NCBI GenBank assembly: GCA_002633005.1
Contig: NMRA01000291.1
Location: forward strand, 199,109 to 263,108
DNA length: 64,000 nt
From: Phoronis australis
Lineage: Eukaryota; Animalia; Phoronida
Reading direction: 5' to 3'
The stretch's first letter is position 1. Each line of letters begins with the position of its first letter. Positions 8,400 through 63,765 of this stretch are shown piece by piece. The translations under genes were made by a program, and so were the position numbers. The notes below the pieces were generated by a model that saw only the letters and a list, made by a program, of their open reading frames with translations, had not been told where the DNA came from and made no database searches.

Positions 8400-11290
8400 A
8401 AAAATTAGTCGTGTCTGCAGTGAAGTGTACATTGCAAGAGACGGTGATCATCTTAGACTAATTGAATCGTAATAATTGAATCATAAGTGTGTGTTGAATA
8501 ATGCAGTAAAGTGACTATTTGAACTGCAAACCCGACGTACTGTAACAACTAGTTAACATGCGTGCAAAATCTCTTACGTAACGATGCAAAGAGGTGCGGC
8601 CAGGGCAACAAGAAAGGAACTTCCGCGGGTATCAGACCAGTGACAAGGGATATAACGTCATACATGTCAAGAGACGAACAGATCCCATACATCACAAACC
8701 GTGAACTTTAAAGCTTATGAATGATAAATTAGAAAGTATGTGAAACGACTTCTTTTAACCAACTGGAGGGTCTACGAAGCGACTTTGAGACAATGAGATA
8801 AGAAAATGTCCACTTGCGAAATGAAATCGTACACCTAAGCAGCAAAGTTGACGATCTTGAAAATAGATCAGGGCGTGATCTTCCATGGTCTGTGTGAACA
8901 ACCACATGAAACATGAGAAGTATCCGAGAAGCTAGTAGAAAGCCTCATAAGAGAGAAGGATGATATCTGCATCGAAAGAGCTCACAGATTCTCTGGTCGC
9001 CAAACAGAGCAATACAAGACCAATAATAGCCAAACTTAACTCGAAAACCAAATAAAAAGTTCTGAAGAAACGAAAGGAGATTACCGAGCCAGGACAATAC
9101 ATCACAGAAGATTTCTCCACCAAAGTCAGACAAGCTCGCAGGAAACACTATGCATTTTCACGGGAAAAATTTGGATAACGCCAAAATGTCTTACAATAAA
9201 CTGTTATGGAACAGAAAGGTCTTCATTTTCGATGAAGGAAAAGACAAGACAGAGAAGTAATGAAACCACCGGCGATTAGCAGTTAGGCCATGGTTCACAG
9301 ATGATGTAGACTTCTATCTCGTTTTTGTGCTGGAATCTTGAAGGTCCGAAAAGTATGCTGCAGACAAACAACGGTGTTCTTCCAAAGGAAATTGGTATTC
9401 ACCACATGATAGGTTTTGTTAAAACTTTTCGAAAGTATGAAAATGAATACAAAGGGTTTTCCCGGGATATTTAGTTTTGCAATAGACGTAGAGGTTGTGC
9501 ATTGAAAGCATCGGGAGGTGTTTGTGTTTTAATAGAATGGCTAAAATATGCAAAATTATAGTCAACGATAAGGACGAGATGATTTGGTTAAGATTAGATT
9601 TGGAAAAGTTCGGTTATAAACAAAATTTATTGGTTTGCAGCTTATAATGCCCACCAGAAGGTTTTAGTTTTTATGCGGACCGAGATCACTCGTCTTATAC
9701 TGAAAATGTAGAAAATGTCTTATTTTAAGCCAGAGAATTGTATCCGAATGACAGTGTATTGATTGTGGGTGACATGAATGCTCGCACTGGTGAGCTACCA
9801 CATCAGCTGGAAGAATAACCTAGTGGTAATAACAAGAACATAGATTTGTATTATCAAGAACAAGATAAACTAGTTATTGGTGGTAAAAAAACAAAATAGG
9901 TATCCTAAAGTTAACAATTTTGGTAAGGACTTGGTGAATATGTGAATTGTCAATAACCTTGTGATATCAAACGGGAGAAAAGTTCCGGATGCTGCGGGTG
10001 AATATACGTATCTAACGAATAATGGCAAAAGCACAAAGTTAGAAGACAAAGGGATCTTCTACGAAGTAACATGTCTAAATCGTGGAAAACATTTTCCAAT
10101 ACGGTGTGAATTTAAATTAAATGGTTACATCATTGAATTTACGAACAACCTCCTAAATATTTCTGGATAGGTCACAAAAAGCAGAATTTATAACATATGT
10201 TACAAGTGACTACTTTGAGTCACGAGTTAACCACTTAACAATCAAAAAAGAAAACGACGTAGACCTGGCTATAACGGAATTTGAACGGTTATTCAGTGAT
10301 GTTGCGGTAAATCCATCTATGGTAAAAAAGATGAATGAAAATGTAAAAGAGCTAAACACATGGTTTGACACTGAATTAAAAACAATCAAAGAAAAGAGAA
10401 ATGGTCTTCTTAAACTTTTTCGTCGTTCTAGAAATGATGATATACTAAGCGAATATCTTTGCATTAAAAGAGTTTTTAAACTCTTAAAAGAGGTATGCAA
10501 ACTGAAGAAAAGTAATAAGAATAAAGAAACGCATAATTTAATTTTAAAGGCGTGTGAGTCGAATGATGCCAGAACGTTTTGGCACTTAATAAAAACTCAG
10601 TCTAGAAAGACCTCTGTAAACAAAAACATTACTGGCAGACAATGGGTAGAACATTTCAGCTCTATTTTAAATATAGACCAATTAGTGTCGAACACGCTCA
10701 GCAAACCAGTGCGGATTTGACAATAACATTGCAATGAATGAAGACATCCTTAGAGAAGAAGAAATTGTAGCAATTAATAGTATGTAAAATGGAAAATCCC
10801 CTTTGGAGGAAGGAATTCTGGTTGAATTTTTTAAGTTTTCAATTGATAAAATTAAGAAATTGCTTTGTAATTTATTAAATAACATCTTGCAGACCGGGGA
10901 ATTCCCAGAAAAGTGGGCTACTGGTATAACACTACCATTATTCAAAAAGATGATGCATCTGATCCAACTAATATAAGGGCATTGCGTTGTCAGTAAAGTC
11001 TTTACTTCAGTTCTAAATAAACGGTTGACTTCATGGTTTGACGAAAATGATTTTCTTGCTGAAGAACGAGCCGGGTTCAGAAAATACCACTCAACCGTCG
11101 ATAACATTTTTCTTGCCAACGGCTTGATACAAAAATAGTTGTTGAAAAGTAAATTCAAACCATTTTATTGTACAATTATTGACTTCAGTAAAGCTTTCGA
11201 TTCTATAAATAGGGACCATTTTTTACATCTTAATACCGAAAGACGTCGTAGGTTCTACTTTTTAAAGTTTTACAAGATATGTATTCAAAT
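8400..11290 (+). mobile_element. Decayed non-LTR retrotransposon (LINE): ORF1, APE endonuclease and 5' part of reverse transcriptase
   Basis: ORF1 remnants (coiled coil, KVDDLENRS, IERAHRF, RPIIAKL, YITEDFS); APE remnants (CWNLEG, SGGVCVLI, IVGDMNARTG, NNFGK, NGR..GEYTY); WFD linker; RT remnants (FPEKWATG, AGFRKYHSTVDNIF, IIDFSKAFDSINR); many stops and frameshifts; truncated at about 11290. Confidence 0.88.
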
Positions 11291-11655
11291 GGTAACTATA
11301 ATATCAAATATTGTTGTTATTTAACTATTTTCAGGAAATGTTACAAGTCAATGCACAGTACGGTTGTTTTCATCTTTGTTATCTCTTTTCAAGTAATAAA
11401 TCGTTACCTATAAAACTGTTAATTTTCTTTTACTAGAGAAAACTTGAAACCTAAAGAGCAAAGTACATACATACATTGGATGCGATCCGGCACGTGAACT
11501 GTCTGGGTTAAGTATCTAAAAAAAATCTGCCGAAAAAAAGAAAGAAACGTGAGAATTCGACGCGTATGTGATAAATATAAAACGTAGGACCTCGATTGAC
11601 GTAAAGTAATATATTACTTCATCTACGCCACTCTCGGTACGTTTTGTGTATTTAT
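11288..11655 (+). mobile_element. Dispersed repeat family A, partial copy (3' half)
   Basis: Shares ATATTGTTGTTATTTAACTATTTTCAGG...GGTACGTTTTGTGTA with the copies at 26477, 34680, 45022. Confidence 0.8.
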
Positions 11656-12984
11656 TCTACTAAATAGGCTTGATATCCCTAATTCAGTATAGCAGCAGTG
11701 TAGAGACAGGAGTATCTTGTTTACCTGAGCCATCCTTTCCTGTCATTTCTGCGCAAACTGGATACATACAAGATTGGATTGTAAAGGTTAGAATTTGACA
11801 GTTTTTAAATTAGAAGACAAAGTCGTGCTTCAAATCCAGCCTGTCCCTCCTTTATCTGAGACTCTGGTGCTCATAGAGTAAAAATATACATTCACTGTTA
11901 GTAAACCGAATGTGTCACAGCTGTGCTTGATGCTTTTCCATGAATGAGATGATAACTTTTTGGGTTAAAAAGACATTTTTACACTTCCCTGGCATTATAT
12001 CGATATCCTACTTACTTTGATTACTTTAGGTGTTCTCAACATGGCATGCTGATAATGGTATCTGTTGAGTGTGACGGCATGACATTTTAGACTCAGTGAA
12101 ATATAGTTAAAATGCGAAAATCAAAAACGATAACTATAATTAGTACTGATTTACTAAGCACTGTAAATTACTAAGCACTTCGAAAATTATTTGTCTTTGA
12201 GCCTTGTCAATCTCAATGCTTCTCAATCTCAACTCCTTGGGCACACAATAGGTGCAACCAGTGTAGGAGCACACCAATTAACTCAAACACATAATTTTGT
12301 CAAAAATGTCATGCTTGTTGTTCTTGTGGCTACCTGAATCAAAAAACCAAGACCTGCAACATTTTTGAAAATGTTATGTAGCTGTGCATTCTGTTCCCAT
12401 TTGTTGGTCCAAATCAATACATATCTGCTACATTATCACTAAACGTGCGAACTATGAGTCTGTGGATACCAAAATTGTTGTCCTTAGAGTACCTGTAGTG
12501 ATTGCATCATGCGAAACAGTATATTTTTGTGTCCCCGAGTCGTTTGTTGCTTCTTCCTGAATGGAATCTCGTGTGTACAGAGGAAGATTTCGGTATCCCT
12601 GTCCAATTCTAAATAAGCATGGTTGACCTTCACAGGTTGCTTGTCTCATGGTGATGGCTCGACATCATCCGGGTTAATTGCGAATGTTCTAATTAGATGT
12701 CGATTAACCCATAAGTCTGTAAGTAACGCGAAGGCCAATGTGTGAGTGTGAGTGTGCTTGTGTTAGGAACAACTTGCGTTATAACGTAGCACCTATCAGT
12801 AGTATGTACATTTATAACAAAGGAACATCGTGCCCTGTGATCTCTGTCCAACACTGAATCTCAGTGTTTTGATTGGAGGAACCTCACTGGATAACCTCTT
12901 GTCTAGATAAATTCTTGTGGTGAAGACTTCAAATAATCGTAGTTAGTCACCACCTTGAAAGCATTTTTTCTTGAAAGGTTTTAA

Positions 12985-12992
12985 TGACGTCA
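12985..12992. promoter_or_regulatory. Perfect palindromic CRE (TGACGTCA) upstream of the insulin-like gene
   Basis: Exact 8-mer about 710 nt upstream of ATG 13704; CREs are common in neuropeptide promoters, but an 8-mer can occur by chance. Confidence 0.3.
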
Positions 12993-13229
12993 CGACAGCC
13001 ACCAAACAGCGCGCAGAATGTATATCTCTTCACCAAACCTAAGCAACCGATCAGTGCCGTCTTAAAGCTTAGGCACGAGGCTGGTCGCCTAAGGCCATGA
13101 GCTTACTCTCGAAACACTACCCTTTCTCTCGCGTCATTTTGCGTTGTCTCGCGACCTCTCTTACGTTGCAAGAAACTCCCGCAACAGAACGCACCCATTG
13201 AATACTCAATGAGACATCTCGTTAGTATA

Positions 13230-13631
13230 AGTGCCGTTTACACTACAAAAGTTGACACGGATCAGCTGACACGGAACGAGTTGTTCCAGCGCAAGTATGT
13301 GTGTAAACGGGACTGAACTGGAGCAAATTGACACCGCGGTGACAACTTTTGCCACCCGTTTGTGAGGTAGAACAATTTGCGCTAGAACATCTTGCTCCGT
13401 GTCAATTATAGAAAGGATCCTATCTACTGCGCGTGTGTAATGACCTAAATACAGGTTCTCTGTCTCTTCAACTCCCGCCAATTGTAAACCTGCTCATGTG
13501 TGATCCACTCTCCAGCCTACAATTTCCGTCTTGCCACAGTTAGTGAGTTGTGTGTGTAAACGGACACTTGACACCGATCAGTTTGCTCCGTGTCAGTTAC
13601 GCCGCCCAAAAGTTGATGTGTAAACGGGACT
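13230..13631. mobile_element. MITE (PIF/Harbinger-like) just upstream of the insulin-like ATG
   Basis: TIR AGTGCCGTTTACAC / GTGTAAACGGGACT with internal repeats of TGACACGG and GTGTAAACGG; flanks ATA/TTA (imperfect TWA TSD). Confidence 0.7.
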
Positions 13632-13703
13632 TTAGACCCTAACTTATTTCACTAGCGAGTTCCCCTTTCAGTTCTGTATAATTGGCATTACGTAATCTTA
13701 TAG

Positions 13704-13890
13704 ATGGCCAGGTTTTCTTCGATGTTTGCTACATTGGTAGTGGTGGGGGCTTCAACAGCTTTAGTGACAGAAGCTCTGGCCAACTGCGTAACGAATATTC
13801 GGAGGCAAATCATGAGGGCTTGTACCATTCCGCGTAGGAGATCAGTCTGGAATCCATTTGACAAGCTTTTGCGAACTAAAAGAGACCTTT
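13704..13890 (+). CDS. Insulin-like peptide coding exon 1 (signal peptide, B chain, start of C peptide)
   Basis: ATG 13704; CVTNIRRQIMRAC; RRR and RTKR sites; GTGAGT donor at 13891. Confidence 0.87.
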
Positions 13891-16314
13891 GTGAGTAAAT
13901 TTTGGTTGTTTATTGTTAGTGCTTGGCCTTTAGCAAATTTTATTTCCATTTCAGTGACAGTTATAAGAACGGTTATGAAATCACCCTGAGACTACCACGC
14001 TTTGCAATTTCCTCCTCAGTATACTGGCGCCATGTGCGAAATCACAGCCGCCATGTTCATTACAAATATGCATAGTGTTGTATTACTGGACAACGTTAAA
14101 AAATTAACAATATTGTGTAGTTGTTGAGACTCTGTTACCCAAAATTTCAGGTAATATTTTACACACCACGGTCGTGCACTCTTCCGGTGTGGACTCAGTT
14201 CGCCTTCCTCCAAACAGCAACGCTTCCCCACACTTTACACGATGATAATCGACGTATGACAGTACATATGTATTAAGTAGCAGGACCAACTGAGAGTATT
14301 ATTTGGGTATCATTTCCTTGAGTCGGTTCAGCTGTATGAGAATATTTTAAAGACACTGAGCAATTTGACAATCAGCATTTGTCAAACGTGCAAACGTTAT
14401 GGCCCGGGAGATCCTCGAGCCTGACACTAAGCGGTGCCTATCACGAGGTCACGTGATAATCAGTGGCTCGCTGGTACCCTGCGTGCTTATAGCCCAGCTA
14501 TCACGCTGGTATCACGCAATGGCACGCGCTTTAGCATTGGTCGATGTAACCTCGGCAGTCATTGGTTAGCTTCACAACACCGTGAAAAAATGACGGATTG
14601 TGAACGATTTTTAGCCTTCTCATACAAGTGGCGTCGCAGCAACTATTTTGTTTCTGCAATGATGTTTAATAGCCACGTGCTTGAAGCACATATATGTACA
14701 ATAAACACATATCTGGCCGCGGATTTAACCGGTGTGTTATTCATACTGTATGAATACTGGACATTATCGCCGTAAACAAAAGTCATGGACAGTAGAAAGA
14801 TTCATTCAGAAAGGGTGCAATCACAATTTCTAGGCTTCACATTTCCTGAACATAAATTTTAAGCACCGATTTGTTTGTACAACAGACCACAATAATTACA
14901 CTTCAGTCCATCAGTCATGCCAGTTTGTTTGCGTAAAGCGCTCCCTGTTGACGAATCGACTAGCCAATCAGGAACGCCGGTGTAAAAAATTTGCCGAGGA
15001 AAATTAAGTGATACCTGCGTGCTGGAGCGGCTACCGCCCCACCTAGCGGCACGCAGGGAACCAGCGAGCATCAGTGGCGGTAACTGATGCATTCCGTAAA
15101 TCTAAAATACTCAATCGCGAAGCCCTTACGTTGAGAAATCTCCGTTTATGGAACAGAAGCAGCGAATTCTATCACAGTCAGTCAACACTCAAACCTAACC
15201 GTCCAGTCACTTCAGTGGCCGCTGTTTTCTAGGGTCCCTTTAAAAGCCCCCAGGCACATTCGCGAAACATTCGCCATTCGTTTGCGTGATTTTGTTTTGT
15301 CGTGAGATGCGTGCGCCTACGGAACTCATCATTGTAGTTTGGCTATACTGCCCTGTGGTCGTTACAAGGTAATAAGTGTGTTGATTGCAGACAATGGACA
15401 TGCGTACTAATTTGGTGACTAGCATAAACTGATACTGGTGACAACGCTGGGGATTTCATTTGCAGTGCTGCATGGTGTCGTTTTTCAAATGTGTTATGGG
15501 GCTGTTGTCGGCTCGTAAGCACCCGATGACATCACAGACAAGTGTTGCTCATGTAAACTGACGTGCATTATGTAGACGCGAGAACCTCGGCGCGAAAATG
15601 CGAGATCGCTGAAGACTTCGCAATACTCTTCATGTACTGCAAGCGAAACACGTGAACACATACACATTAGCTAATTTCGCGATATTCTTGCGTGTACGCA
15701 ACCCAGAAACAGATATAAATTTTTGTTTCAGGCAATGAGATTTAACTTCAGCGTGGTCCTCTCAGATGGCGCGTGCCTTTAGAATCGTAGCTCAAACAAC
15801 TTTGTTATATGAGGCTCACAACCAATCTTTTTAAAACTATTCTATGATGATTGGTTTGTCACACTCGCATCAAAAAGCATGTCGCAGTGGACCCACGGTT
15901 TCAATGCTGGCGCACAAATCATGTTTTCCATCATGTGATTACACATCCATACTTATCTTTGATGTCACAGCCGTCCCACAATGCATTCAAAAATAGAACA
16001 GCAGCGTCGTAAAAATGAAATATCCAGCATTGAAGAGAGTAAATACCAAAAGCAAAGTTTCACAAATAGAGAGTAGTTTTACACTGCGGCTTTAAAACAA
16101 CGAAAATATGTTTGCACAATATTTTCTATCGAACATTTGTGTTGTAGCATTACAAGAACTGATGCTACTCCGTGATCAGGACACACAGTTTGAAACTACA
16201 GGAGCTGTTTCAAAATCTATTCGGTCTACGACGGTAAAGCAACTTCTGCATATGTGTTGCCGACGACCAGTCCAGAACCCGTGTACAGCGTACGACTTGA
16301 GGGGTCTCTGTTAA
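13704..16314 (+). CDS. Insulin/relaxin-superfamily preprohormone (divergent insulin-like peptide), 2 coding exons: 13704-13890, 16148-16314; 117 aa
   Basis: Donor T|GTGAGT at 13890/1 (phase 1) and acceptor TTGTAG|CA at 16147/8 join in frame: MARFSSMFATLVVVGASTALVTEALA-NCVTNIRRQIMRACTIP-RRR-SVWNPFDKLLRT-KR-DLSLQELMLLRDQDTQFETTGAVSKSIR-STTVKQLLHMCCRRPVQNPCTAYDLRGLC*. It has a hydrophobic signal peptide, B-chain C-x11-C, basic cleavage sites, and an A-chain CC..C-x8-C ending at the stop. The phase-1 intron in the C-peptide is typical of insulin-family genes. The ATG is directly preceded by TTATAG, a possible acceptor of a 5'UTR intron. Confidence 0.88.
16148..16314 (+). CDS. Insulin-like peptide coding exon 2 (C peptide end, A chain)
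   Basis: TGTGTTGTAG acceptor; CCRRPVQNPCTAYDLRGLC-TAA. Confidence 0.87.
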
Positions 16315-16373
16315 TAGGCGGCGTTGCTCGCGTTTATCTGACGTTTGAACAGAGTACAATTTCCTAAGGAGTT

Positions 16374-16481
16374 TGTGTACTTTTTATTTAGAAAAAATGT
16401 ATTACATTTATCTTCCTAGTTATTCATTGTGTACTTTTTATTTACAAAAATTGTATTAAATTTATCTTCCTAGTTATTCAT
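16374..16481 (+). repeat. Tandem duplication of about 54 bp in the presumptive 3'UTR of the insulin-like gene
   Basis: TGTGTACTTTTTATT...TTTATCTTCCTAGTTATTCAT twice; the second copy contains ATTAAA (16455-16460). Confidence 0.8.
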
Positions 16482-17567
16482 TTCAAAACCATCAACATAA
16501 TTATATCCATAGTAATGTCTAATTGATTAATTAGATTATTTAAAGCGGCAAACACTCCTTACGTCAAAGAAGTGATGGTGATTTAAACCACCTGCCGCTG
16601 TAAAATAGGTCTCAACGTGTTCCTTAGTCAGAAGAGAAGTGATTTCTGGTCTTGTATAAGAAGTGGCAGTTGAAACCATGCACGGCGCATGCCAGGCCAA
16701 CTTGCAGAGGCTGGTGTCAAGCCATAATGAAATCATACAATCTCTAGTTTGACTAAGAAAGAATTTGAGATCAATTTCATAATCGTATGTGATACAAATC
16801 AAAGGTTGATTTTGTGATGTAGGGCGAGTTTATAACAGCTTTTATAAGAGAAATGATAAGCGCTCGGTGAATTTGAATCGTGTAATTTCCGGTGGTTTAT
16901 TACGCATGCTTTCCATGAGCGTCACTGAAATTGTCCGTGGCGAGAACAGCATTCTTTTTACCAAGAATAGCTGATGAAGGATTTAGCAAAACGAGTATTT
17001 TATGTACTCGACAGAAATCAGTATCGGAGTACCGGAATTTTCTACAGAAAAGCCCGTGACGTACATTCGGAAATAGTTCAAGGACTAAAAGTTCGGGCTG
17101 GTATTTGGAAAATGACAAGAATACGCTCGCTTGTACCCAAAGTCACCCCAACTGGTGAAATTGAAACCAAGAAAGAAAATGCACAACATTGCCGATGTAT
17201 GATTGTCTCCACAGAGAGGAGTTTGTTGTTGAAAGTTTTACTTTTTACAGTTTGGTTTCCATTTGCTATGAAACTGGTAAAAGTTTAACCATGCATAGTT
17301 TTTCAAATATACGACCAAGGGGTATCTGCGGAACATTTTCCTTATAAACAGCCACTGACCCTATCTAAAGATGGGTGATGTGGAAGAGCAAGCTCCACAA
17401 TTGGAAGGGCGACAACGCGTATGAAGATAAGGAACTCAGTTTTATCGACGGCATTCAAATGAATGTATTTTGTCTGATACGCTACCGATCAGTGCTGGGC
17501 CCGGGTGCACGAGGCATTATCACGCGTCATATTGCTACTGTTAAACAATGCATTTGAAACCATACAT

Positions 17568-23969: not shown

Positions 23970-24147
23970 CTACAACATTTTGTCCAGACTTTGGAGCTTG
24001 CGGAGAGCTTCACTAATGATACACAAGTCTCCCTTCAGCTCACTAACCACCGTAGCTATCTGCTTGTGGGTACTAAGTGTTTCCACAGTTTGCGTATACG
24101 GGTTATACCGCGTAGCAAATGGCTTTTTTATCGTACATGCAAACTCC
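23970..24147 (-). CDS. TPH: TPH exon 10 (tetramerisation helix, stop)
   Basis: [24 protein letters not shown]...[14 protein letters not shown]. Confidence 0.95.
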
Positions 24148-27100
24148 CTGTAAATATCAGTTTTTCCAGTTAGTTTCAATTTCATACAATTTCGTATTAA
24201 AACAGCACCAATCACCCCCTACAAAGGAAATTTCTGATAAAGGGAGTAGGCCTATCTACCAAAAGCTTCTATCGTGACAAGCTACCAGTCATGCGGGTCG
24301 CCTCAACAGTGCGCGACTTGCTTATTACTAAATCTTGTTTTGGCGATTTCGCTCAAAGCTGGTTATTCTTCCCCCTGTTGATGCGTTATTGGTTCCTGTT
24401 AATGCATTATTGTTACCTCCTCTGAGTGATGAAGGTATTATTCAGCTAAGACAATTCCTTAATACGTCCTGACGTTCCCCCTGTGGTTTTAAATGAGTGC
24501 TGATTTCCCTCATTCGCCGTGTAACCTTCGTAAAGCGTTAGACACGCTTGATGATCGAAGGTGTTTTCAAACTTGCTCCAAGATTGTGAGCGTTGACGAG
24601 CATCAGGGCACTATTGTGTTTCAAAGTTGACAGGTCGTAATATCTATGAATAGGCTAAAAATATTTTTAGTGTCATTTTAAGATAAAGCTAAACCATCTG
24701 CACTAACTTTCAATAAAGGCCATGTATTCTCATAAGACGGTCTCATCTTGTTCCTTACTCAGACCAGAACGATTTTTAGGCTTGATAAGAAGTGATGGGT
24801 TACAAACCAATCAGATGTTTTAGCTTTTGACCCAGGTGAACCGTCGAAGTGAATCAATTGCCTTCAATGTGAAATGCATGTTCTTACATTTTAGGGAAAA
24901 TGGCGTATTCAAGATGTCGGTTGGTCAATTAGCAGAGGTAATTTGTAATTATACTCTGAGAACAGAAGAATACATTGTTGCTGGACCCTATACTTATACT
25001 TACCTCATTCGTTCTTTAGCTTCCTCAAAGCTCTCTGTGTAGTAGTACGAATCTTGGTAGGAAGTGATTATGCACGTTTGTTGACAAACGGTAATTGGGT
25101 CAAACGGTCTGACGACGGCTTTCTCCGAAAGCACGTGCTACAAGAGAAGTTTCGCTTGATAGTAACCACTTTACTTGTGCCCTTGATTAGAAATGGTGTG
25201 CAAGAGTGCGTTTTAAGGTAAACAAGCACCCAAAGTGACTTAAGACTGAATTAGTCCGAAATTTTGTCTTGCGCCCCCATTTCGCTGATACTGAATTTTG
25301 TGTTTGTGATGTAATTGTCAGCGTGCCAATTTCAAGATGAAGATTACCCCATTGCATTTCACTAGATGCCGATGATATCATGTTGTTAGCATACTATCTA
25401 AGTGATCAACCAAGGCCCGGGGTTTATAATCTTTGTACGAAATTATTTTTGACATTTTCCGTTCTATTTTTGTGCGGACGCAAGATACGTGTCTATTATC
25501 ATATGCTATGGCATGTTATGTTCCAGGTGGACGACTGTCTATGAAGTTCCCGCTTGATTATCCTTAGGTTCAAGTTACAAAATCCAGTAAAAACACGAGA
25601 TTTCGAGTAAAAACTCAATATCTGGAATAAAAAATCGAAATTACGAGTTCAGACTCGACCCAGCGTTAAAGGTATAAGTTCATCAAGTACAACCTAAGGA
25701 CAGACAATCGAAAACACATATTCTACAACAATGGCGAATATTCTAATTTTAACAATAGATGGACTCCCGTGGATCTTTTACTGATTGATTAACGTTTAAC
25801 TCAGTAAGCCTTGGGAGGCCCCATGAAAAAGACGAATAGAGTGTCACCCACGTAAACCATAATGTACACTAGCACAGAATAGTGACACATGTCTCGAGTT
25901 CGCACAAAAGTAGAACGCAAATGCCAAAAATAACGTCCATTTCGAGTACAATGATTAGCTCCTGGTTTCAGGTATATCACTTGGACATAGCTGTGCATAA
26001 CTTACTAATAGGTAAAAGCAGTACTACCATTCACTATTATCGAGTATCTATGATAGATTACTACTCTTGCAACAGCTGATACTACTACTGCTACTGCTAC
26101 TGTTACTGCGACTGTTACTGTGACTGCGACTGCTATTGCAACTGCTACCACTAAACTCACAAATGGATACATTTGCAAAGAGACGTACTTTCAGTTCACT
26201 GATAGATGACAGCAGGCCAGCACCGTAGACTCTCAATTCCGAGTTCTCTTTACAAAGACCAAATTCCACCGTGAAGAAATAGCACTGATAGAAAGAAAGA
26301 CAAATACACCGTGAGAACTTTATGATTTGTCGTGTCCAGGGAAAAGTAGCTTACAGACATACTAAATAACATCCAAGAGGATGAATTACAGAACGATCAT
26401 TGGTGAAGACCAAAACGTGTATTTTCCTCAAAGGACCATGTTTTCCCATCGAAAGGAAACAATGACACATCATTTTTTTATCCCATACGCCTTGAATCTG
26501 TCGAGGGAAATACGACCATGTAATAATTTTTCCATATTCACCTCCCGCATTACTTCAACAGTGACCTCTGACATGGAAAGTTCAAAAGGTAGGGCAATGT
26601 CGACTCGACGTCGTTAGCCGGTTAGATCATCAAACTTTCGGAAATAGTTTAAGTAATACAATTTAACAGTGTAAATAACACTCAACAAGCAATCAGGTCT
26701 CAATGGTAACATCTGGAACAGGACTGTTGATTATATGACAGTTCTGTCTCAGTTTTCATTTGCTAAATATTGTATCGTCTGCAACTCAGGCCCCAATTCC
26801 ACGGTAACTACAATATCTAATATTGTTGTTATTTAATTATTTTCAGGAGATGTTACAAGTTCAGTGCAAAGTTACCGTTGTTTTCATCTCTTTTCAAGTA
26901 ATGAATCGTTACATTTAAAACTGTTTCTATTACTAGAGAAAACTTGCAACCTAACGCGCGAGTACATACATATAGGATGTGATCCGCCACGTGAACAGTC
27001 TGAGTGAAGTATTAAAAAAATCTGCGGAATTTTTTTTTTAAAACTCACAAATTCGAAGTGTATGGGATTTTTCGGTCGTGGTCTGTGCGCGGAATAATGT

Positions 27101-29701
27101 CGCGTGGAACATTATTTCGTGTACGCCAGTCGCGGTACGTTTTGTGTATATCTACCACTCATAGTGAAAAATCAAACATTTGAAAAGCGTAATTTTTACC
27201 ACACGTTTGTCAACGCAAGTAAAGTAACTTACTGTAGCTAGTTTTTGTATTTCGTCATCCGACGCTCCGAGTGAACAGAGTCCTATTTCTTGAGAGAACT
27301 GAGCGAAACTGTGATCGGCCAACAATGGAATGTGACCCAGAAGTTCGTGACACGTATCTCTAGAATTGTCCAATAGAAATACACTGACAACAGACAATAA
27401 TAAGCAGAAAATGCCTTATTTTCTTGGAAATAGAATTACGTTGAGTTTTTATGAAAAATACACAAAACACCTGTCCGAAAGTATGCATGTACAATAATTT
27501 AAAAGTGGACATATTTCGAAGTTTATTATCAGATGTCCTATTGTTACTCATACTGGTGACGTGAGGAAAATTGAAACGCGTCAAGTTTTTTAAGTGCCGT
27601 TGTTTTCACCAACATCATAAAACCTATGAAGGTTGTCCCGCGTTTAGATGTGCAACTTCTGAGAGAAGGCACAAACAGACATCTGATCATAAGGGAGATC
27701 AGAGCTAAAACGTTTACAAAGGTGTACTATCTGCATGTTCTCTTGCAAGTAATTCGCATAACATAATGAGCAGATAGGAATTAATCGTCTTAATAGCATT
27801 TAGCATAACAATTAAGTGCAAAAATACTGATATTCTGGCTAATCACGTGCGATCACCATGGACGACCAAACCACAAGTTACGTCACTGAGTCTGGGCTGA
27901 GTTCCGAAGACGTAAGAATGTCGCGAAGGAAACTAGTGTGATCGCGTGCTTCATTTGTATCCCGTGAAGTCTTGCGTGATCTTGTGTTCACGCGAGGCTC
28001 TCGCGTCCACTAACACACGCCTGGTCTCGCGGAACAAAGGCAGAGAATAGAAAATGAGTTCGATTTCGAGTGGAAAGATCTGACTCCGGGCCCAGACGTA
28101 TGACGAGCGTTTGCATGTGGAATTTGTTTTCAGCCGGCGAATCCGAAACGTCCGATTTACCTTCCGAATGCTGTATAACGTTGACCACAACAGTACACAT
28201 AACAGTAACCGTATCCGAATTTTCTATAGGCAGAACCGTCTTTAGATACGCCCAGAGGGCGTATTTAAGGACACTCAGTTTTTTTCACAAAAACCCACAA
28301 AGGCACCGGCGGGGAGTATAATTGGGAAACAACGTATGGTTGAAAACTAAAGCTTTTCTCAGTTTCATAGGAAATACACACCAACAAAGTGTTCAACAAT
28401 GACCTCCTATCTGTGGCCATAATGTGACTTTATCATTGTACTCGCTATGCTTTGATTTCTTATATGAACGCAAAGCAGTCGTCTATTTTCTAGTCGATTG
28501 CCCAAGTTTTTATAGTACTACTGCACACAACACGATAAGATTACGACGGCATCTTTTCGAAGAAATGGCGATCGGTCTACCAATGTGTTCAGAGTACGGT
28601 AGAGCAGAACTAACAGAATTAAATTAAGAAAATATAAATCACGTTGACACTCACGGCTCAGGTGTGTAAAAGGGATCGGAACTGTGTCGTACATATTGCG
28701 TGCAGTGGAACACACGAAATGCCAAACCGGCCAGGAAATCACGTGCAGATAAATATCCAGCGACTGGCCGCAGTTGGAACCCTGTACGCGAGGACAGGAA
28801 TTTAGAGACGTCATCCAGTTGAGGGATATTGTCTTCCCTGGAAGAAAAAAAAATGAAAAATAACCTCCTGATTAGTGTGCACGCAGCTGCATCTGTTATC
28901 ATAACAAGGTTACTAAATTGTGGAATTGTGTTGACCAATGTAGCAACTTTCCTCATTGGTGAAGGATACACTACGTGGCATACACGTTGGAGGAGGGAGT
29001 CGGACATCAGTGCTACTCACGTGTGTTGGCTCATCTTGTTGTTTTTGCGAACGGCGGTTTTCAAAGAAATTTGGAATGTCCTACTTTACAGTTGTTTCAA
29101 AACATGCCTGGATTATAACATAATCATCCTCTGTTCTGTTCACGTTACCTTCACAAAAATTAAAGAAATTGGTCATTAAAAAGGCCAGTTACAAAACACG
29201 ACTCCTTGGTCTGTTTCTGCTTCCTACAGGAGAAAGCCTCGAAGACAACTCTTGTTTCCAAATGGCATACAAGTAAAAACTAAGCCAATGGGTTGACTTT
29301 TGACGTCTTTTCTAAAATCACGACATCAACTTCACTGTACTGGTACTGTTGATGAAATGGCGTAGGGAATAAGACATTTGTTTGGAAAATGCTGACATTT
29401 CCGCATATGCTACCGACTTCTTTCAACAAGTGACTTTTTCTGTGTTTGTTAGCACCTGGTACTGTATTTTGGTTAATTTAAGCCTCGCAACTACAACAAG
29501 GAACGTCGTTTTAATTTGCAATATCTAGACAAATATGTGTTCCAAGGGCAAACCACCTTGTGGAGCGTGTCTTTAAATACTTATTTACAGACGGGTTACG
29601 TGTCTAGGGGACCTCCTTCGACATGTAAGTTTACGACGGTTTCAAATTACCTCTCCAGTGTGTTGATTGCAAGAGCAGATGTACCTAATTAACTATCATT
29701 G

Positions 29702-29771
<70 letters not shown>

Positions 29772-32700
29772 CATTTTCATTATCGTGATCATTATCATTA
29801 TCATTATCATTGTTGATACTAGTATCACCATGGTATCACTGATGTTATCGTTATCAATTTTATGAGAAGTTTTCAAATGGGGAACTCACGGCGCTTCGCA
29901 ATATATGTCAAAAATGAGAGAATTAAATTGGCCAGAATGTTGAAAATACAAGAAATAAAATAAGTGACAGTACAATAAAGCGCGTGAAAGAGAAAGTGAG
30001 ACAGATAACTAGGAGGGTCTGGAAAATTGTGGTCTTAGAGGTACAAAAAGATATTATAATAATGGAGAAAACCGCTGCCCCAATCAAAAGACATTGGTAT
30101 AAACACGGTTATTAAGTATTTCTTTTGAGTGACTCATTACATCGCATTGATTTTATGACAATAAAACACTGTGTGTTAATAAAACCAAAAAAGGTTATAA
30201 GCATGTGAGGTGGTTTCAGGAATAAAACATGGCGCACGGCTAAAGTGAAAGTCACGGGATGCATTCAATATCTTGTAAGTTTAGCGAGATCACGCATGCC
30301 TTCTCGATATACAATCGAAGCACGTGATCTCACAAGATTTCGCGATCAGCATACGCCTACCCACCTGTAGCCGCAGTGTTCTGACAAAAGCGGAAGATTA
30401 ACAAGGTGCTCTCTGCACGAATGCGTAGGATACAGTTTCATCAGTTCTCGATAGACGGTGCCCCAAGTCTGAATTTCTTCATCAGTGTAGTCCGCTCTCG
30501 GAATGGGTTGACCACTGAATGCCAAATAAACATGTTAATGAAACGCAAAAGGGAATTTTGATCCAGATAAAAATTGAAAGAAAATTTACACGTTGATACA
30601 TGCAAACATTTAGCTTCAGTGTCATCTCTGCGTTCTTCGCTATAATTTGTGTCCCCAACATGCTCGCTTGATAGAAAATGTCAACAACCTTCGTAACTGA
30701 CCTTATTCTAAATAAAACTTTTAATAATCTTTTAAGTATCACAACCGATTCTGGGCGTTGCACTTTTCACGGCTTAGAAAAGTATTCGATTGTGAACTTT
30801 TTGTCTTTATATATAGTAAAATTGAAAAACACCAAAGCCATTTCGCACTCTATAAAAACACTTTTGCATGACAGGTATCAGAAAATATAGAGTTTACTCA
30901 CTGCTTATAATTCATGGCTAAACCACAGAAATATTTCCTTCGTTCGCGGTATACTTTATCTTTAAATCCAGGATGGTCCGCGTCGAGTTCAGCGCCATAC
31001 ATTAGCACGTGGTTAGCGGTTTTGTCCAAATCGCTGATCTTGCGCGGGAACCAAGGAATTTCCTTCTCTTCAAATGCTGAAAAAAGGGTTCCATATTTTC
31101 TACAGTTATAAATACACGTATCCATACTTCTCATTAAAAATCATTGCCAGAACTAATTCTTCACTTTTCAAAAAGCTCACTGCATTGATAATAATGTTCA
31201 CAACTTTACAATGTGTTTGTTGTTGTTTAGTCAGGGATTGTTCTAAACTGTAGAAACTTAACCTTAACTTAATAGCGTTTGTTATAAGTCAGCGTGTGGA
31301 TATGGTATAAGTAAAAATTATATAAGCCTTCTTAAACGACATTCTACCGCAAGTGTTGCTTAAAAGTTGTTTAACAAAATAAGCGCATGCACATTAGAAG
31401 GTTAGCTCATGAACTTATCTAATCCCTGTGTGCTTATGTCCCAAAAACGTCTGCTCAAGTGCATCGCAATTAATAGCTGCAAGCGTCTAGGCAAAAGCGG
31501 TTTTCCGTCATTAAAAACCACACTCTTCCTTGAGTAAACTAAATTATTTACCAGTGTTGTTAAAACGGGGTTCTATAGTTATTCTGCTGCTAAAATTGTG
31601 GCGCGATCTTTTGCGTCTGCTTTCGGCGTCATGACATAAATTTTTGCGTCACCTATTGACCAGTTTCTTTTTTCGCCGATTCTTCAATCATCTGTTGTTA
31701 TTTCACGAGGTTGCGTACACGTCACAACAAATTACCGGAAGTGGTTTCACCTCATTATAAGTTTTTAGAATTTTGGTGCCAGCAAACCGAATTTCAGGAC
31801 AAAATTTTTTGCTGCTAAGCTGTCATCATCTCCCACAAATTTTAGGAAACGGCGCAAGCTCGTGTCACGAGCGTAATGTTCCAAAACGACGACATATTTT
31901 TCTTTGTTACAAAAGGGGAGAATTAAGCAGAAGGATACGTTTATTGGATTGTAATTCACTTAAACGGCTGTAACGGGCAAGGTGACTGTCAATTGACTCC
32001 CAGGTTTACATGCATCCTCGCACTGCATGTTGATACAAGTTTCACGGCGAGGTGACGAGCAGAATTATCTAGGCTGTGTTAAATTTTGAGATTTGTCGGA
32101 GCTCAATACAAAGTGGTACCTGGCTTTATTTTGACGATAGCTGGCTGGCTTCAGTTCACCCTGGTTAGCTGGCCAAAAATCAAAAAATCGGTTTCGGACT
32201 CATAATATTCTTTACCATGAGAGGATTCTGTTTCCGTAATCAACAAGGACATTGACACCATCAGCGACTCAAGAAAACGCTTCAGAGTTTATTTGGATTG
32301 GTCAATCTCAAAATTGTAAGTCGAAAATGGCACTAGTAGGTATTGCCTGTGACTTGGTAACAGAAATGTAATCCTATCACGATAAGGTCTGGAATATCAT
32401 GAGACCTACTTTGTAAGACTAAAATGTTCAATTCAGTTTTCGTTTTTTATCCATATCAACATGTAGAAATGCAGCTTCAAAAACTGGCTGAATTGTTTCG
32501 CATGTATACCGATGTGCTAGTGATCTTTTTACGGATAGCGAAAATCGTGCACATACTAGAGTGCAGGTTTGTGGGATACAAGGCCTCCTAATCCAGAATC
32601 TAAAAATTTCTAGGAAGGCGATCGTCTGCTCGATAAGCGGGCAGTTCACTCTTGATTTCTACAAGTTGTTTTCTTCTACTAGCGGTGCTGTTTTGGATGA

Positions 32701-35700
32701 CCCCTTTTGCACAAACCTTTTGAATATGACGTCTCACGCTAAAAATGACGTTAGTAACAATCTTAATGCAATATCAGTTGTACACGTGAACATTAATTGC
32801 TTGATTTTTTAACACATTAGATACCGGTATATTCCATTACCAGATTCATCCGACTGTTCCTGACAATCGACGTCCTCCAACACAATGTTAGCCACCTGAT
32901 TCTTCAAGAGGGTAACTAGTTCGTCCAGTCTCGTCGTGTTGCCAGGTTCAATGTCCACGTGAATCTCTACAGCCGAGTCAGTTCGACGAGATTGTCGAGA
33001 CTCAATGTGGACAACATTCATCTTCTTTTCCTGCAGGCGGCCAATATAAAGACTTAGAAACGAGTTTGACGGGAGAGTAGAGTAGGGCTTAACGCACCAC
33101 TAAGAACAAGTCCAAACGCAATTGCGGGGCCTAGAGTGATGGGTGATCGTCTGCTGCCTTCATTTAAATTTTAACCATTTTTATTACAAATAGTGGTAGC
33201 AACAGTCAGTGGAGGGTTATTGATGAATGTAACTAAGTTGTAGCTTAAAAGGATGCCACACCCGGTTTTGACCTATCAAAACAGATACTATTAAAAACGA
33301 CTATCCTATCCAGTTCTCTGAAACAAAATAATGCTCTGAAACTCTCGACAACCTTCAAAAGTTTGGAGCAAAATTAAGTCTGCTAAACGGGCAAGCGCGA
33401 CCCAGGCTTTTCATTAGCGAATTACACGGCAACTGCTTTGTATGACACGTGACGCCACCCTAGCATTGCTATCCGCAATAAGTTGCATGGCCCAGTACTT
33501 CCTCCGGCGACAGGGGTAGGGATTGCGCTGATTCATTTGAGGCAGTATTTTCAATCAATTAAGGTGACTAATTGTAGAAGAGTAGACAAGTCACTTCTTT
33601 TAAAAGCCGGCTTGGGAGGCGCAGGCTTCAAGATAAGTCGGGACTCAGACCAGAATCAAACATGCTTCCGATACTCCCATATAATCTCGTATTTGAGCGG
33701 ATATTGCAGTATAGCTGTATCACCTGTGCCCAGTATTCGATATCAAAAATCGAACTTCAGTTTGTTTATTGTATTGTCCGCTCTATTTCTTGAACTCAAG
33801 ATAAGCTTGTGATTTCAAAATAAACTTTAGTTCATTAAATGCAAACTTGGACTATGTACTTGATCTGTGTACACCAAGATTTTCAGACGGTTAACTAGAA
33901 TTTAAACCTGAAGAGGCACTAAATCCAGTTTTATCCAAGAGACCGGACCATTAGTTAATTTCATTCAACCCTATCAGAAATGCTCTGATGATATTTATGT
34001 CACGCGTTGCTCCCATTCAAGTTAATGATCTAGTCTGTCAACTATTTTTTCTTGATATTTAGTCCAAGAGCAGAATATCCAAAATCAGACTCAGACTCGA
34101 ATCTCAAATTTGTAAGTTTACTCGAACCTTACTAAGCATTAATCAATCTTCGAATCGCATGCTGAGATTAGACTCCGGGTTCTAATGTCGCGTATTACGC
34201 GATACCCGAAACTCCATCGCGACAAATACACAAAAACGTGTAGTATACGGATGAAAATTTTAAGAAATAGAACTTTATTATTAGTAACCCTTTTTACACG
34301 AAGTGTCAACTTCATCTATTGGCTATACAGGTCATTTATTGACTACATGGGTCATTTATTGGCTGTATAGGTCATTTATCATCTCATTCGTATTTAGAAA
34401 AGCATATTGAACGTACCTGGAAAATTTGCAACGCTCTTGCCAACCCTCCTATCTGATTCCTTAAGGAGAAAACGACAGATGTTGTTTTGTTGAAATTACT
34501 ATCCGTACTGCACGTTGACAGGCTTCTGAGTTTGTGCTGAAATAAAATTAAACGGTTAATACATCAAACAACAATAAGTAATTAGAAATAAATTTCTGAA
34601 CGTCTAAGAACATTAAAAATAAATGCAATGAAAGGGGTTACAGAAGTCGGGCAATCCTATACAATTCAGCATGAATATGTTTTATCCCATACGCTTTGAA
34701 TCAGTCAAGTGCAATACGACCATGTAATAATGTTTTCCGTATTCACCTCCCGCACTACTTAAGCAGTGACCTCTGCCATCAAAAGTTCAAAAGGTAGGTC
34801 AAAGTCAACTCGACTTCGTTCGCCGGTTCGATCATCGAACTTTCCGAAAATAGTATAAAGTAATACAATTGCAGGAGTGTAAATAACTCTCAACATGCAA
34901 TCAGGACCGTAACATCTGGAATAGGACGGTTACTTATATGACAGTTCTGTCTCAGTTTTCAATGTCTAAACATTATTATATAACTCAGGCGCCGATTCCT
35001 CGGTAACTGTTGTTATTTAACTATTTTCAGGAGATGTTACAATTTCAATGCACAGTTACCGTTGTTTTCATCTTTGTTATCTCTTTTCAAGTAATAAATC
35101 GTTACATTTAAAACTGCTTCTTTTTCTAGAGAAAATTTGCAACCTAACGCGTAAGAACATACATATAGGATGTGATCCACCACGATAACAGTCTGGGTGA
35201 AGTATTTAAAAAATCTACCGAAAAAATGAAAACTTAGAAATTCAAAGTGTAAGGGATAAATAGAAAACGTACCTCGATTGGCGTACATGAAATAATATCC
35301 TGCTCGCCATTATTCCGCGTGTCCACCTCAACCTTCAGTCTCGGCCAATACGCGGAATAATGTCTCGTGGGATATTACTTCATCTACGCCACCGATTCTC
35401 GGTACGTTTTGTGTGTCTATATTGTACTCGCGATAACTCAGATTAATTGCGTTTCATCTACGTATATCATTACGGAAATTTCAAATGAATTCATGAAATG
35501 TTCTATCAAATAGACCTTGTAGAATTTTACATAACTTAAAAGCATTTAGAATCTAATTACAGAATTCAAGACCCCGCAATAATATTTATCGAAAATTAAG
35601 TGTCGTGCATCAATTTGCTGAATCTGTTTCATTGGCTGCATTTTCTGGGTCATCCGGCCAAGACATTTGATTGGTTTGTGAGCAAAATGCCGTCATCAAG

Positions 35701-63600: not shown

Positions 63601-63765
63601 CATCATTGCTGAGTACAGTCAGTGCCATGGGATCAAACTGCAGTCACTGACCAGTGAACAAGTTATCGCTAGAACTCTCTCTTGTCTAGAGCAACTCATT
63701 GACGGATATGAGGCAGATGGGGGCCAGGCGTTCTTGGAAGAATACTACAGATACTGGCTGCACAG
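54391..63765 (+). CDS. HLCS: Holocarboxylase synthetase / biotin--protein ligase, 11 exons in window, 3' end beyond window
   Basis: Exons: 54391-54690, 55603-55773, 56932-57088, 57723-58315, 58829-59008, 60411-60564, 60831-60954, 61397-61464, 61995-62155, 62736-62850, 63552-63765. All are GT-AG with consistent phases (745 codons + 2 nt). Motifs: KPPNVLIYCG, TPWIDNTALLVIA, YAQHLSTHTLGQVVLYSDVVPSTM, QTRGKGRGGNAWLSPKG, KWPNDIY, KIGGILV, IGIGVNVSN, YYRYWLH. Confidence 0.95.
55603..55773 (+). CDS. HLCS: HLCS exon 2
   Basis: TTTCAG|QTVDLSKWTAYLS...KIK|GTATAC. Confidence 0.75.
56421..56479 (+). repeat. 25-bp tandem duplication in HLCS intron 2
   Basis: TTCAAAATGATCCTTTCTCCAACCT x2. Confidence 0.85.
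56932..57088 (+). CDS. HLCS: HLCS exon 3
   Basis: TTTGCAG|VTDISTPLAWK...EMI|GTAAGT. Confidence 0.78.
57723..58315 (+). CDS. HLCS: HLCS exon 4 (N-terminal BPL domain)
   Basis: KPPNVLIYCG...GGKVL...GKAILSQ|GTATGT. Confidence 0.92.
58829..59008 (+). CDS. HLCS: HLCS exon 5
   Basis: ILLEKEAKD...RRLLLTCFLQELGIAC...LTPAYMFAVTE. Confidence 0.88.
60411..60564 (+). CDS. HLCS: HLCS exon 6
   Basis: TTTCAG|AKRQHFINE...FLPVII-G|GTAAAG. Confidence 0.82.
60831..60954 (+). CDS. HLCS: HLCS exon 7
   Basis: FNMTTYAQHLSTHTLGQVVLYSDVVPSTM. Confidence 0.92.
61397..61464 (+). CDS. HLCS: HLCS exon 8
   Basis: GLVVIADRQTRGK. Confidence 0.92.
61995..62155 (+). CDS. HLCS: HLCS exon 9 (biotin-binding GRGG loop)
   Basis: GRGGNAWLSPKGCAQF...LQHLAGLAVVKAVRSLDGYE. 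Confidence 0.95.
62736..62850 (+). CDS. HLCS: HLCS exon 10
   Basis: KWPNDIYFSDQIKIGGILV. Confidence 0.95.
63552..63765 (+). CDS. HLCS: HLCS exon 11
   Basis: IGVNVSNSLPTTCLND...FLEEYYRYWLH; phase-2 donor, gene continues out of window. Confidence 0.94.

What the first reader, a model, noticed from the sequence alone, without database searches (positions are those of the whole stretch)
13704..16314. Hidden two-exon insulin-superfamily hormone with an expanded A-chain loop (CC-x7-C-x8-C) and a minimal B chain
Seen: two small ORFs 2.2 kb apart splice in frame through a phase-1 GT-AG intron. The product is a 117-aa precursor with a signal peptide, B chain C-x11-C, RRR and RTKR sites, and an A chain ending in Cys-stop, with exactly six Cys. 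Established: insulin/IGF/relaxin A chains are normally CC-x3-C-x8-C and most B chains carry Cys-Gly. Here the loop is seven residues (RRPVQNP), and the B chain has no Gly and no aromatic tail, with possibly just one residue before the first Cys. Inference: a fast-evolving, lineage-specific hormone. It resembles the divergent gonadulin/dilp8/GSS-type peptides that signal through LGR-family GPCRs more than insulin-receptor ligands, and automated annotation could easily miss it.
Basis: partly seen in the sequence, partly recalled or inferred. Interest (0 to 1): 0.85.

Follow-up and report, generated by a model that had tools for sequence, protein, structure and literature searches.

The report
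Hidden relaxin-type hormone gene in invertebrate
This is a real, spliced gene of a marine-type invertebrate that encodes an insulin-family hormone precursor, likely the counterpart of the relaxin/gonadulin reproductive hormones already known from lamp shells, worms, starfish and insects, and its odd cysteine spacing, though rare, is already in print for three insect members of that family.

Summary
Observation confirmed. RNA reads join 13890 to 16148 exactly (4 reads, one run), giving a 117-aa precursor with six Cys, C-x11-C and CC-x7-C-x8-C. Two corrections. Reads point to a further upstream exon spliced onto the ATG. RRR and RTKR both follow the B chain, so the A chain is likely freed at a single Arg (R88).

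The gonadulin/LGR reading is supported; "lineage-specific" and "novel spacing" are not. By eye, the closest published peptides are brachiopod, nemertean and Owenia relaxin-type precursors and cockroach gonadulin. They share the B-chain helix residues, a B chain placed right after the signal peptide, a phase-1 C-domain intron and no C-terminal tail. Of 43 published arthropod gonadulins, 3 have exactly CC-x7-C-x8-C and 36 lack Cys-Gly.

The host is likely a lophotrochozoan outside gastropods and bivalves; its phylum is unresolved. No close homologue was found in the databases searched. Receptor, tissue and fold are untested.

Verdict: new member of a known kind; modest interest.

The parts
13702..13703 (+). 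AG acceptor of an inferred upstream intron, directly before the ATG; the upstream exon was not located
   Evidence: Read depth begins at 13702-13704 and those reads run on unlike the window. An in-frame TAG lies at 13701. Inferred.
13704..13781 (+). Predicted signal peptide, residues 1-26
   Evidence: Hydropathy peaks at 2.4 over residues 6-15, and a small-residue -1/-3 site follows residue 26; other sites (16, 19, 24) also fit. SignalP was not available.
13782..13832 (+). Predicted B chain, residues 27-43, with C28-x11-C40
   Evidence: Sequence; single-sequence AlphaFold2 gives a helix over residues 26-40, pLDDT 63-76.
13833..13841 (+). RRR, predicted convertase site ending the B chain
   Evidence: Sequence; cleavage inferred.
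13872..13883 (+). RTKR, a furin-consensus site inside the C domain
   Evidence: Sequence; furin consensus as given in PMC8286064. Novocrania has a KR-D-[IL]-S site at a similar place.
13891..16147 (+). Phase-1 GT-AG intron in the C domain, 2257 nt; it holds a repeat element at about 14466-15069
   Evidence: 4 junction reads; repeat shown by read pile-up and inverted arms.
16213..16224 (+). K-x-x-R (residues 85-88), predicted monobasic site that frees the A chain
   Evidence: Sequence; Terebratalia and Laqueus relaxin-type precursors also have a lone R-S at this place. Inferred.
16225..16311 (+). Predicted A chain, residues 89-117, CC-x7-C-x8-C, ending on the last Cys
   Evidence: Sequence; nearest ESM Atlas clusters are Insulin/Relaxin at 0.89 and 0.84, a lead only.
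16261..16281 (+). Seven-residue loop between Cys100 and Cys108, four residues longer than the usual three
   Evidence: Sequence; compared with published sets.
16312..16545 (+). Stop codon and 3' UTR, with a 54-nt tandem duplication and a candidate ATTAAA at 16455
   Evidence: (X1 contig).

Best explanation
This spliced, weakly expressed gene encodes an insulin-superfamily precursor that is likely this animal's relaxin/Dilp8/gonadulin-type hormone, predicted to be secreted as a disulfide-linked two-chain peptide that would activate an RXFP/LGR3-type G-protein-coupled receptor and likely acts in reproduction. Shown: the exons, the junction, six cysteines in insulin order, a B chain directly behind the hydrophobic leader, and no tail after the last Cys. 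Inferred: the signal peptide is cut near residue 26; convertases cut at RRR (44-46) and RTKR (57-60) and at the single Arg88; this leaves a 17-residue B chain and a 29-residue A chain joined by Cys28-Cys100 and Cys40-Cys117, with Cys99-Cys108 closing an enlarged, proline-containing loop. The RR in that loop is followed by Pro and is likely not cut. The four extra loop residues likely arose in this lineage, in parallel with sawflies and lice. My odds by step: insulin superfamily 0.97, relaxin/Dilp8-type orthologue 0.85, LGR3-type receptor 0.7, reproductive role 0.55.
For: Junction reads. [quoted passage not shown] By-eye likeness: 5 of the 11 residues between the B-chain cysteines are identical to Terebratalia and Laqueus precursors (plus two conservative changes), and 5 of 11 to Blattella gonadulin. 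4 of the 8 residues before the last Cys are identical to a Novocrania precursor, which also ends LRGLC-stop. Per-comparison chance is 3e-4 to 5e-3, before allowing for about 140 sequences looked at. The A chain ends in (L/F)-x-G-x-C as in Owenia, nemertean and Blattella peptides. LGR3 genes are listed for Lingula, five annelids and Bombus, whose gonadulin has a five-residue loop. Starfish RGP1/2 activate RXFP/LGR3 and trigger spawning, and Dilp8 acts on LGR3 (PMC11863921). Insect gonadulins are strongly expressed in ovaries (PMC7357564).
Against: The family assignment rests on eye comparison with short published sequences; no profile score or tree was computed. Pfam gave no Insulin hit for either exon alone, and PDB sequence searches with the A and B parts found no insulin-family chain. 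All nine spiralian relaxin-type entries seen in PMC8557429 and the Owenia peptide have a three-residue loop ending in Gly; this peptide lost that Gly. The first Arg of the vertebrate relaxin cassette (R-x3-R-x2-I/V, recalled; visible) is Thr here, although brachiopod orthologues keep it; starfish RGP1 lacks it too. No receptor from this genome was seen, and LGR3 is reported lost in molluscs, bryozoans and flatworms; a non-gastropod, non-bivalve mollusc host is not excluded. Expression is very low: 6, 2 and 0 reads on exon 1 in 11-13 million records each, tissue unknown.
Confidence: 0.68

Rival explanations
1. It is the relaxin/Dilp8-type orthologue, but it has lost its LGR3 partner and signals through LGR4 or a GRL101-type receptor; the longer loop marks that switch.
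For: LGR3 is reported lost in molluscs, while mollusc precursors still fall in the relaxin clade on long branches (PMC11863921). A non-gastropod, non-bivalve mollusc host is not excluded. The loop Gly and the first cassette Arg differ from brachiopod orthologues.
Against: TPH does not reject grouping with Lingula (p-AU 0.34), and Lingula has LGR3. Bombus keeps LGR3 together with a lengthened loop, so the insertion does not by itself imply a receptor change.
Confidence: 0.13
2. It is an independently diverged, lineage-specific insulin-like peptide (for example a tailless IGF paralogue) that acts on the insulin receptor tyrosine kinase, and the likeness to relaxin-type peptides is convergent.
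For: No homologue was found by sequence search; the chains are short, so shared residues are few.
Against: [quoted passage not shown] Its matches in B chain, A chain and processing sites all point to the same group.
Confidence: 0.1
3. Processing variant, compatible with the best explanation: Arg88 is not cut, so the mature hormone carries a long A chain starting at residue 61, after the furin site.
For: No dibasic site lies before the A chain; the only full furin consensus is RTKR at 57-60. PMC7357564 argues gonadulins may not meet neuroendocrine convertases.
Against: A lone Arg-Ser sits at the same place in Terebratalia and Laqueus, where nemertean and Novocrania peptides have KR or RRR; this suggests a conserved cut.
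Confidence: 0.25
4. It is a decaying copy: still transcribed, but the loop insertion stops it from folding.
For: Low read counts; no close relative available to show purifying selection.
Against: Open frame, all six Cys, intact splice sites and leader; the same spacing occurs in three published insect gonadulins.
Confidence: 0.04

Closest known systems
Brachiopod 'insulin-like peptide' entries Terebratalia Ttra.rna.tri.21852.1, Laqueus comp24991 and Novocrania Nano.rna.tri2.31125.1 (PMC8557429 supplement; listed there without a subtype)
   Same: B chain close behind the signal peptide and without Cys-Gly; 5 of 11 inner B-chain residues identical (Terebratalia, Laqueus); lone Arg-Ser before the A chain; Novocrania ends in the same five residues and stop (by eye).
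   Different: Their loop is CC-x3-C with Gly before the third Cys, against x7 with Pro here; they keep the first cassette Arg.
Owenia fusiformis ILP2/RLP (OFUSG19272.1) and nemertean RLP (PMC11863921; PMC8557429)
   Same: Phase-1 C-domain intron in Owenia, B chain ending x-A-C, A chain ending L-x-G-x-C, no tail.
   Different: Cys-Gly kept, x3 loop, dibasic KR before the A chain; the Owenia C domain is much longer.
Arthropod gonadulins / Drosophila Dilp8 (PMC7357564), ligands of LGR3
   Same: Blattella shares IRRQI in the B chain and T-x-x-Q-L before CC; Athalia, Neodiprion and Pediculus share CC-x7-C-x8-C; 36 of 43 lack Cys-Gly (by eye).
   Different: Different phylum; no shared sequence in the C domain; 34 of 43 have the x3 loop. 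No IGF- or Dilp7-type A chain lies beside the gene in this window, unlike the triplet of cockroach and stick insect.
Starfish RGP1/RGP2 (GSS), ligands of RXFP/LGR3
   Same: Six Cys, short B chain, a single phase-1 coding intron, ends on the last Cys.
   Different: x3 loop, KR sites on both sides of the C peptide, little residue identity.

Membership tests
Insulin/IGF/relaxin superfamily | Six Cys: two in B (C-x11-C), four in A (CC-xn-C-x8-C) | tested here: met
   n = 7 rather than 3, as in 3 of 43 published gonadulins.
Insulin/IGF/relaxin superfamily | Signal peptide - B - C - A order with a phase-1 intron in the C domain | tested here: met
   criterion from PMC8286064. Signal peptide judged by hydropathy only.
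Insulin/IGF/relaxin superfamily | Match to the Pfam Insulin profile (PF00049) | tested here: inconclusive
   No hit for either exon scanned alone; the spliced precursor was not scanned. ESM Atlas nearest clusters for exon 2 carry PF00049 at 41% and 90% of members, scores under 0.9.
Insulin/IGF/relaxin superfamily | Three-helix fold with two interchain and one intrachain disulfide | tested here: inconclusive
   Separate single-sequence models show the B helix and the first A helix at low confidence (mean pLDDT 64 and 55); the disulfides were not modelled.
Relaxin/Dilp8/gonadulin type | B chain directly after the signal peptide, no phase-2 intron between them | tested here: met
   One exon carries both, and reads cover it without a gap; criterion from PMC11863921.
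Relaxin/Dilp8/gonadulin type | Sequence likeness to, and clade placement with, known members | tested here: inconclusive
   Likeness seen by eye; no tree or profile was computed because these sequences were available only as supplement text.
Relaxin/Dilp8/gonadulin type | Activates an RXFP/LGR3-type receptor | not testable with these tools
   No genome is held for this window; needs a cell assay.
Relaxin/Dilp8/gonadulin type | Gonad-linked expression or action | not testable with these tools
   The tissue of runs X2-X4 is not given.
Vertebrate relaxins (RXFP1 ligands) | R-x3-R-x2-I/V cassette on the B helix (recalled; visible) | tested here: not met
   The equivalent positions are Thr30, Arg34 and Met37.
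Dilp7 type (LGR4 ligands) | F domain, phase-2 intron, CC-x4-C and conserved WEE motif | tested here: not met
   None present.
IGF type | D/E extension after the sixth Cys, Cys-Gly, GIVxECC | tested here: not met
   The stop follows Cys117 directly; the motifs are absent. A spliced-on tail was not seen but read depth there is low.
Molluscan insulin-related peptide / octinsulin type | Eight Cys, four disulfides | tested here: not met
   Six Cys.

The most novel reading that the evidence does not exclude
The host is an early-branching mollusc (outside gastropods and bivalves) that kept a relaxin/gonadulin hormone although its phylum is reported to have lost the LGR3 receptor. Either LGR3 survives at the base of molluscs, or this ligand, with its enlarged A-chain loop and lost cassette Arg, has moved to another receptor such as orphan GRL101, which would then become directly testable.
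Probability: 0.12. Interest if true: 0.62.

Novelty: new member of a known kind. Interest (0 to 1): 0.33.

Why it matters
It fills a gap in the relaxin/Dilp8 family among spiralians. It gives a concrete, synthesisable candidate spawning or gonad hormone for an animal whose gene was in none of the protein collections searched. If the host is a phoronid, it would be the first relaxin-type peptide I could find for that phylum: 0 of 8 phoronid entries in PMC8557429 are of this type. The seven-residue loop, reached separately in sawflies, a louse and this lineage, suggests that LGR3 ligands tolerate large changes in the A-chain loop, unlike insulin-receptor ligands. That is a testable structure-function point, not a new kind of system.

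Tried and rejected
No whole genome is held, so receptor, paralogues and wider synteny were not searched. Run search: no indexed RNA holder was listed; raw-read runs of the same species label were laid instead.

Homologue searches found nothing. The word search with the exon-2 frame covered 39-126 aa only. phmmer with exon 2 against 1.84 billion representatives gave 1 hit, a repeated bacterial-type protein, rejected as chance. In metagenome contigs, 0 of 597 candidate stretches were confirmed. PDB sequence searches gave 1 chance hit at E 1.4 and 0 hits. The ESM Atlas with exon 1 returned only scores under 0.8. Exon 1 was not used for the large protein searches.

The two-chain model of A and B pieces gave 'no answer', score 0.04, controls not folded; it is not used as evidence either way. 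The single-chain models were too weak for a fold search, so none was run.

Neighbouring insulin-like genes: only 1 A-chain pattern and 1 leader + B-chain pattern occur in six frames. Pfam scans of 245 of the 248 ORFs of 60 aa or more (the other 3 were this gene's two exon frames and one HLCS frame, covered) showed only the hydroxylase and biotin ligase as credible genes.

Host phylum: the HLCS tree is unresolved and 2 of its 3 clade tests did not finish. The 38-row TPH tree is a quick tree only. No annelid, phoronid, nemertean or chiton TPH was among the rows used.

The IGF1-PAH / INS-TH neighbourhood of vertebrates (recalled) was considered as a synteny clue and dropped, because the neighbour is TPH-like and no relative's locus was available. 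The upstream exon was not located; zero depth at 12552-13103 argues against that stretch.

Full report
Observation. The two exons splice in frame through a phase-1 GT-AG intron to give 117 residues with exactly six cysteines, C-x11-C and CC-x7-C-x8-C. On pattern alone this was only suggestive: 13 of 100 simulated windows held an A-chain-like pattern by a stop, 15 of 100 a leader + B-chain pattern, and 2 of 100 both. RNA settles it. In run X2, 4 of 6 reads laid on 13645-14390 stop at 13890 and continue with the first 30 letters of exon 2. All 8 reads in X2 and X3 (4 pairs) have the first mate on the minus strand, which fits a plus-strand RNA. X4 had none, so expression is low. Exon 2 is covered thinly in X2 and X3, and an X1 contig covers the last codons and 3' UTR. 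Depth begins at 13702-13704 behind an AG, with reads running on unlike the window, so an upstream exon is inferred; whether it is untranslated is open.

Anatomy. A hydrophobic leader probably ends at residue 26, leaving one residue before Cys28, though other cut sites fit. RRR and RTKR both follow the B chain. Before the A chain there is only K-x-x-R at 85-88. Separate single-sequence models give a helix across Cys28-Cys40 and a helix leading into the CC, both at low confidence.

Surroundings and host. The neighbours are a tryptophan hydroxylase gene (minus strand, about 23980-34550) and a biotin-protein ligase gene (plus strand, from about 56920). No second insulin-like A or B chain was found in the window. 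In a quick 38-row TPH tree the window's gene fell with Lingula and the gastropod + bivalve group (SH-aLRT 89) but outside the latter. In a careful 16-row tree that wider grouping was unresolved; placement with bivalves (p-AU 0.005) or gastropods (0.015) was rejected and with Lingula was not (0.34). The best named HLCS hits are a chiton and a clam at 40-44%, and that tree is unresolved. The host is thus likely a lophotrochozoan other than a gastropod or bivalve. Earlier AI notes on this genome disagree between mollusc and phoronid.

Relatives. Sequence searches found none; the ESM Atlas gave insulin/relaxin clusters as a lead. Published supplements, compared by eye, were decisive. Among the 68 insulin-like entries of PMC8557429 (8 phoronid, 30 brachiopod, 30 nemertean), this peptide is absent (motif search), and 0 of 68 have a seven-residue loop. 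But 3 brachiopod and 6 nemertean entries form a relaxin-type group with the Owenia RLP of PMC11863921, and this peptide fits that group. It shares 5 of 11 inner B-chain residues with Terebratalia and Laqueus, a lone Arg-Ser before the A chain, and the last five residues with Novocrania. Cockroach gonadulin also shares 5 of 11 B-chain residues. Each match has a chance of 3e-4 to 5e-3, weakened by about 140 comparisons; the weight comes from B chain, A chain and processing sites all pointing to one group. The gene structure meets the published criteria for relaxin/Dilp8 against Dilp7, and IGF and eight-Cys types are excluded by the missing tail and the Cys count.

Is the spacing new? No. Of the 49 'Gonadulin' rows in spreadsheet S1 of PMC7357564, 6 say 'not found'. 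Of the 43 sequences, 34 have CC-x3-C, 6 have x5 and 3 have x7: Athalia XP_012255959.1, Neodiprion XP_015513023.1 and Pediculus XP_002423397 (corrected). 36 of 43 lack Cys-Gly (counted by eye). Since the spiralian relatives seen all have x3, the long loop here is most simply a parallel gain.

Mechanism. By family, the peptide would be secreted, cut into A and B chains and act on an RXFP/LGR3-type receptor. Starfish RGPs and fly Dilp8 do so, LGR3 is listed for Lingula and annelids, and insect gonadulins are mostly gonadal. None of this was shown for this animal. Against it: the first Arg of the relaxin cassette and the loop Gly are lost, no receptor was seen, and LGR3 is reported lost in molluscs. 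The two source papers also disagree on where starfish GSS/RGP belongs, so subtype labels in this family are themselves unsettled.

What I read. PMC7357564: passages, section 8 and all gonadulin rows of S1. PMC8286064: parts 2-4 of 8 and passages, no supplement. PMC11863921: sections 5 and 13, passages, two supplements whole and rows of two more; its FASTA datasets could not be read and may hold a closer relative. PMC8557429: passages and the whole ILP section of the supplement. PMC6321970: first half; its A-chain motif table is external and unseen. PMC12343078: passages. The decapod gonadulin preprint was seen as a listing only. Seven library searches showed no description of this gene or of a phoronid relaxin-type peptide; subscription journals are mostly not covered.

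Verdict. A real gene, correctly spotted and correctly assigned to the gonadulin/relaxin side, but an expected orthologue whose two striking features already occur within that family. New member of a known kind; interest 0.33.

Noticed in passing
window 23982-34551, minus strand: Tryptophan hydroxylase gene, nine exon pieces found by tblastn, open in all pieces, tail to tail with the hormone gene about 7.7 kb away.
   Followed up: yes
window 56920-63763, plus strand: Biotin-protein ligase (HLCS) gene, at least eight exon pieces; its end probably lies beyond the last piece found.
   Followed up: partly
window 16373-16480: 54-nt tandem duplication (94% alike) in the 3' UTR; the X1 contig carries one copy only, so it is polymorphic or specific to this assembly.
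   Followed up: partly
window 14466-15069: About 600-nt intronic repeat with 21-nt terminal inverted arms and deep coverage by divergent reads from other copies; MITE-like.
   Followed up: no
window 13229-13632: About 400-nt repeat just upstream of the ATG with nested inverted arms, also multi-copy by reads; MITE-like.
   Followed up: no
window 15312-15679: Faint same-strand read depth inside the intron in X2 and X3 (0.1-0.2): pre-mRNA or a rare extra exon.
   Followed up: no
window 10157-11321, plus strand: Broken reading frames that look by eye like the region upstream of a LINE reverse transcriptase; no Pfam hit at E 0.01.
   Followed up: no
window 39579-39961: Assembly gap of 383 N.
   Followed up: no
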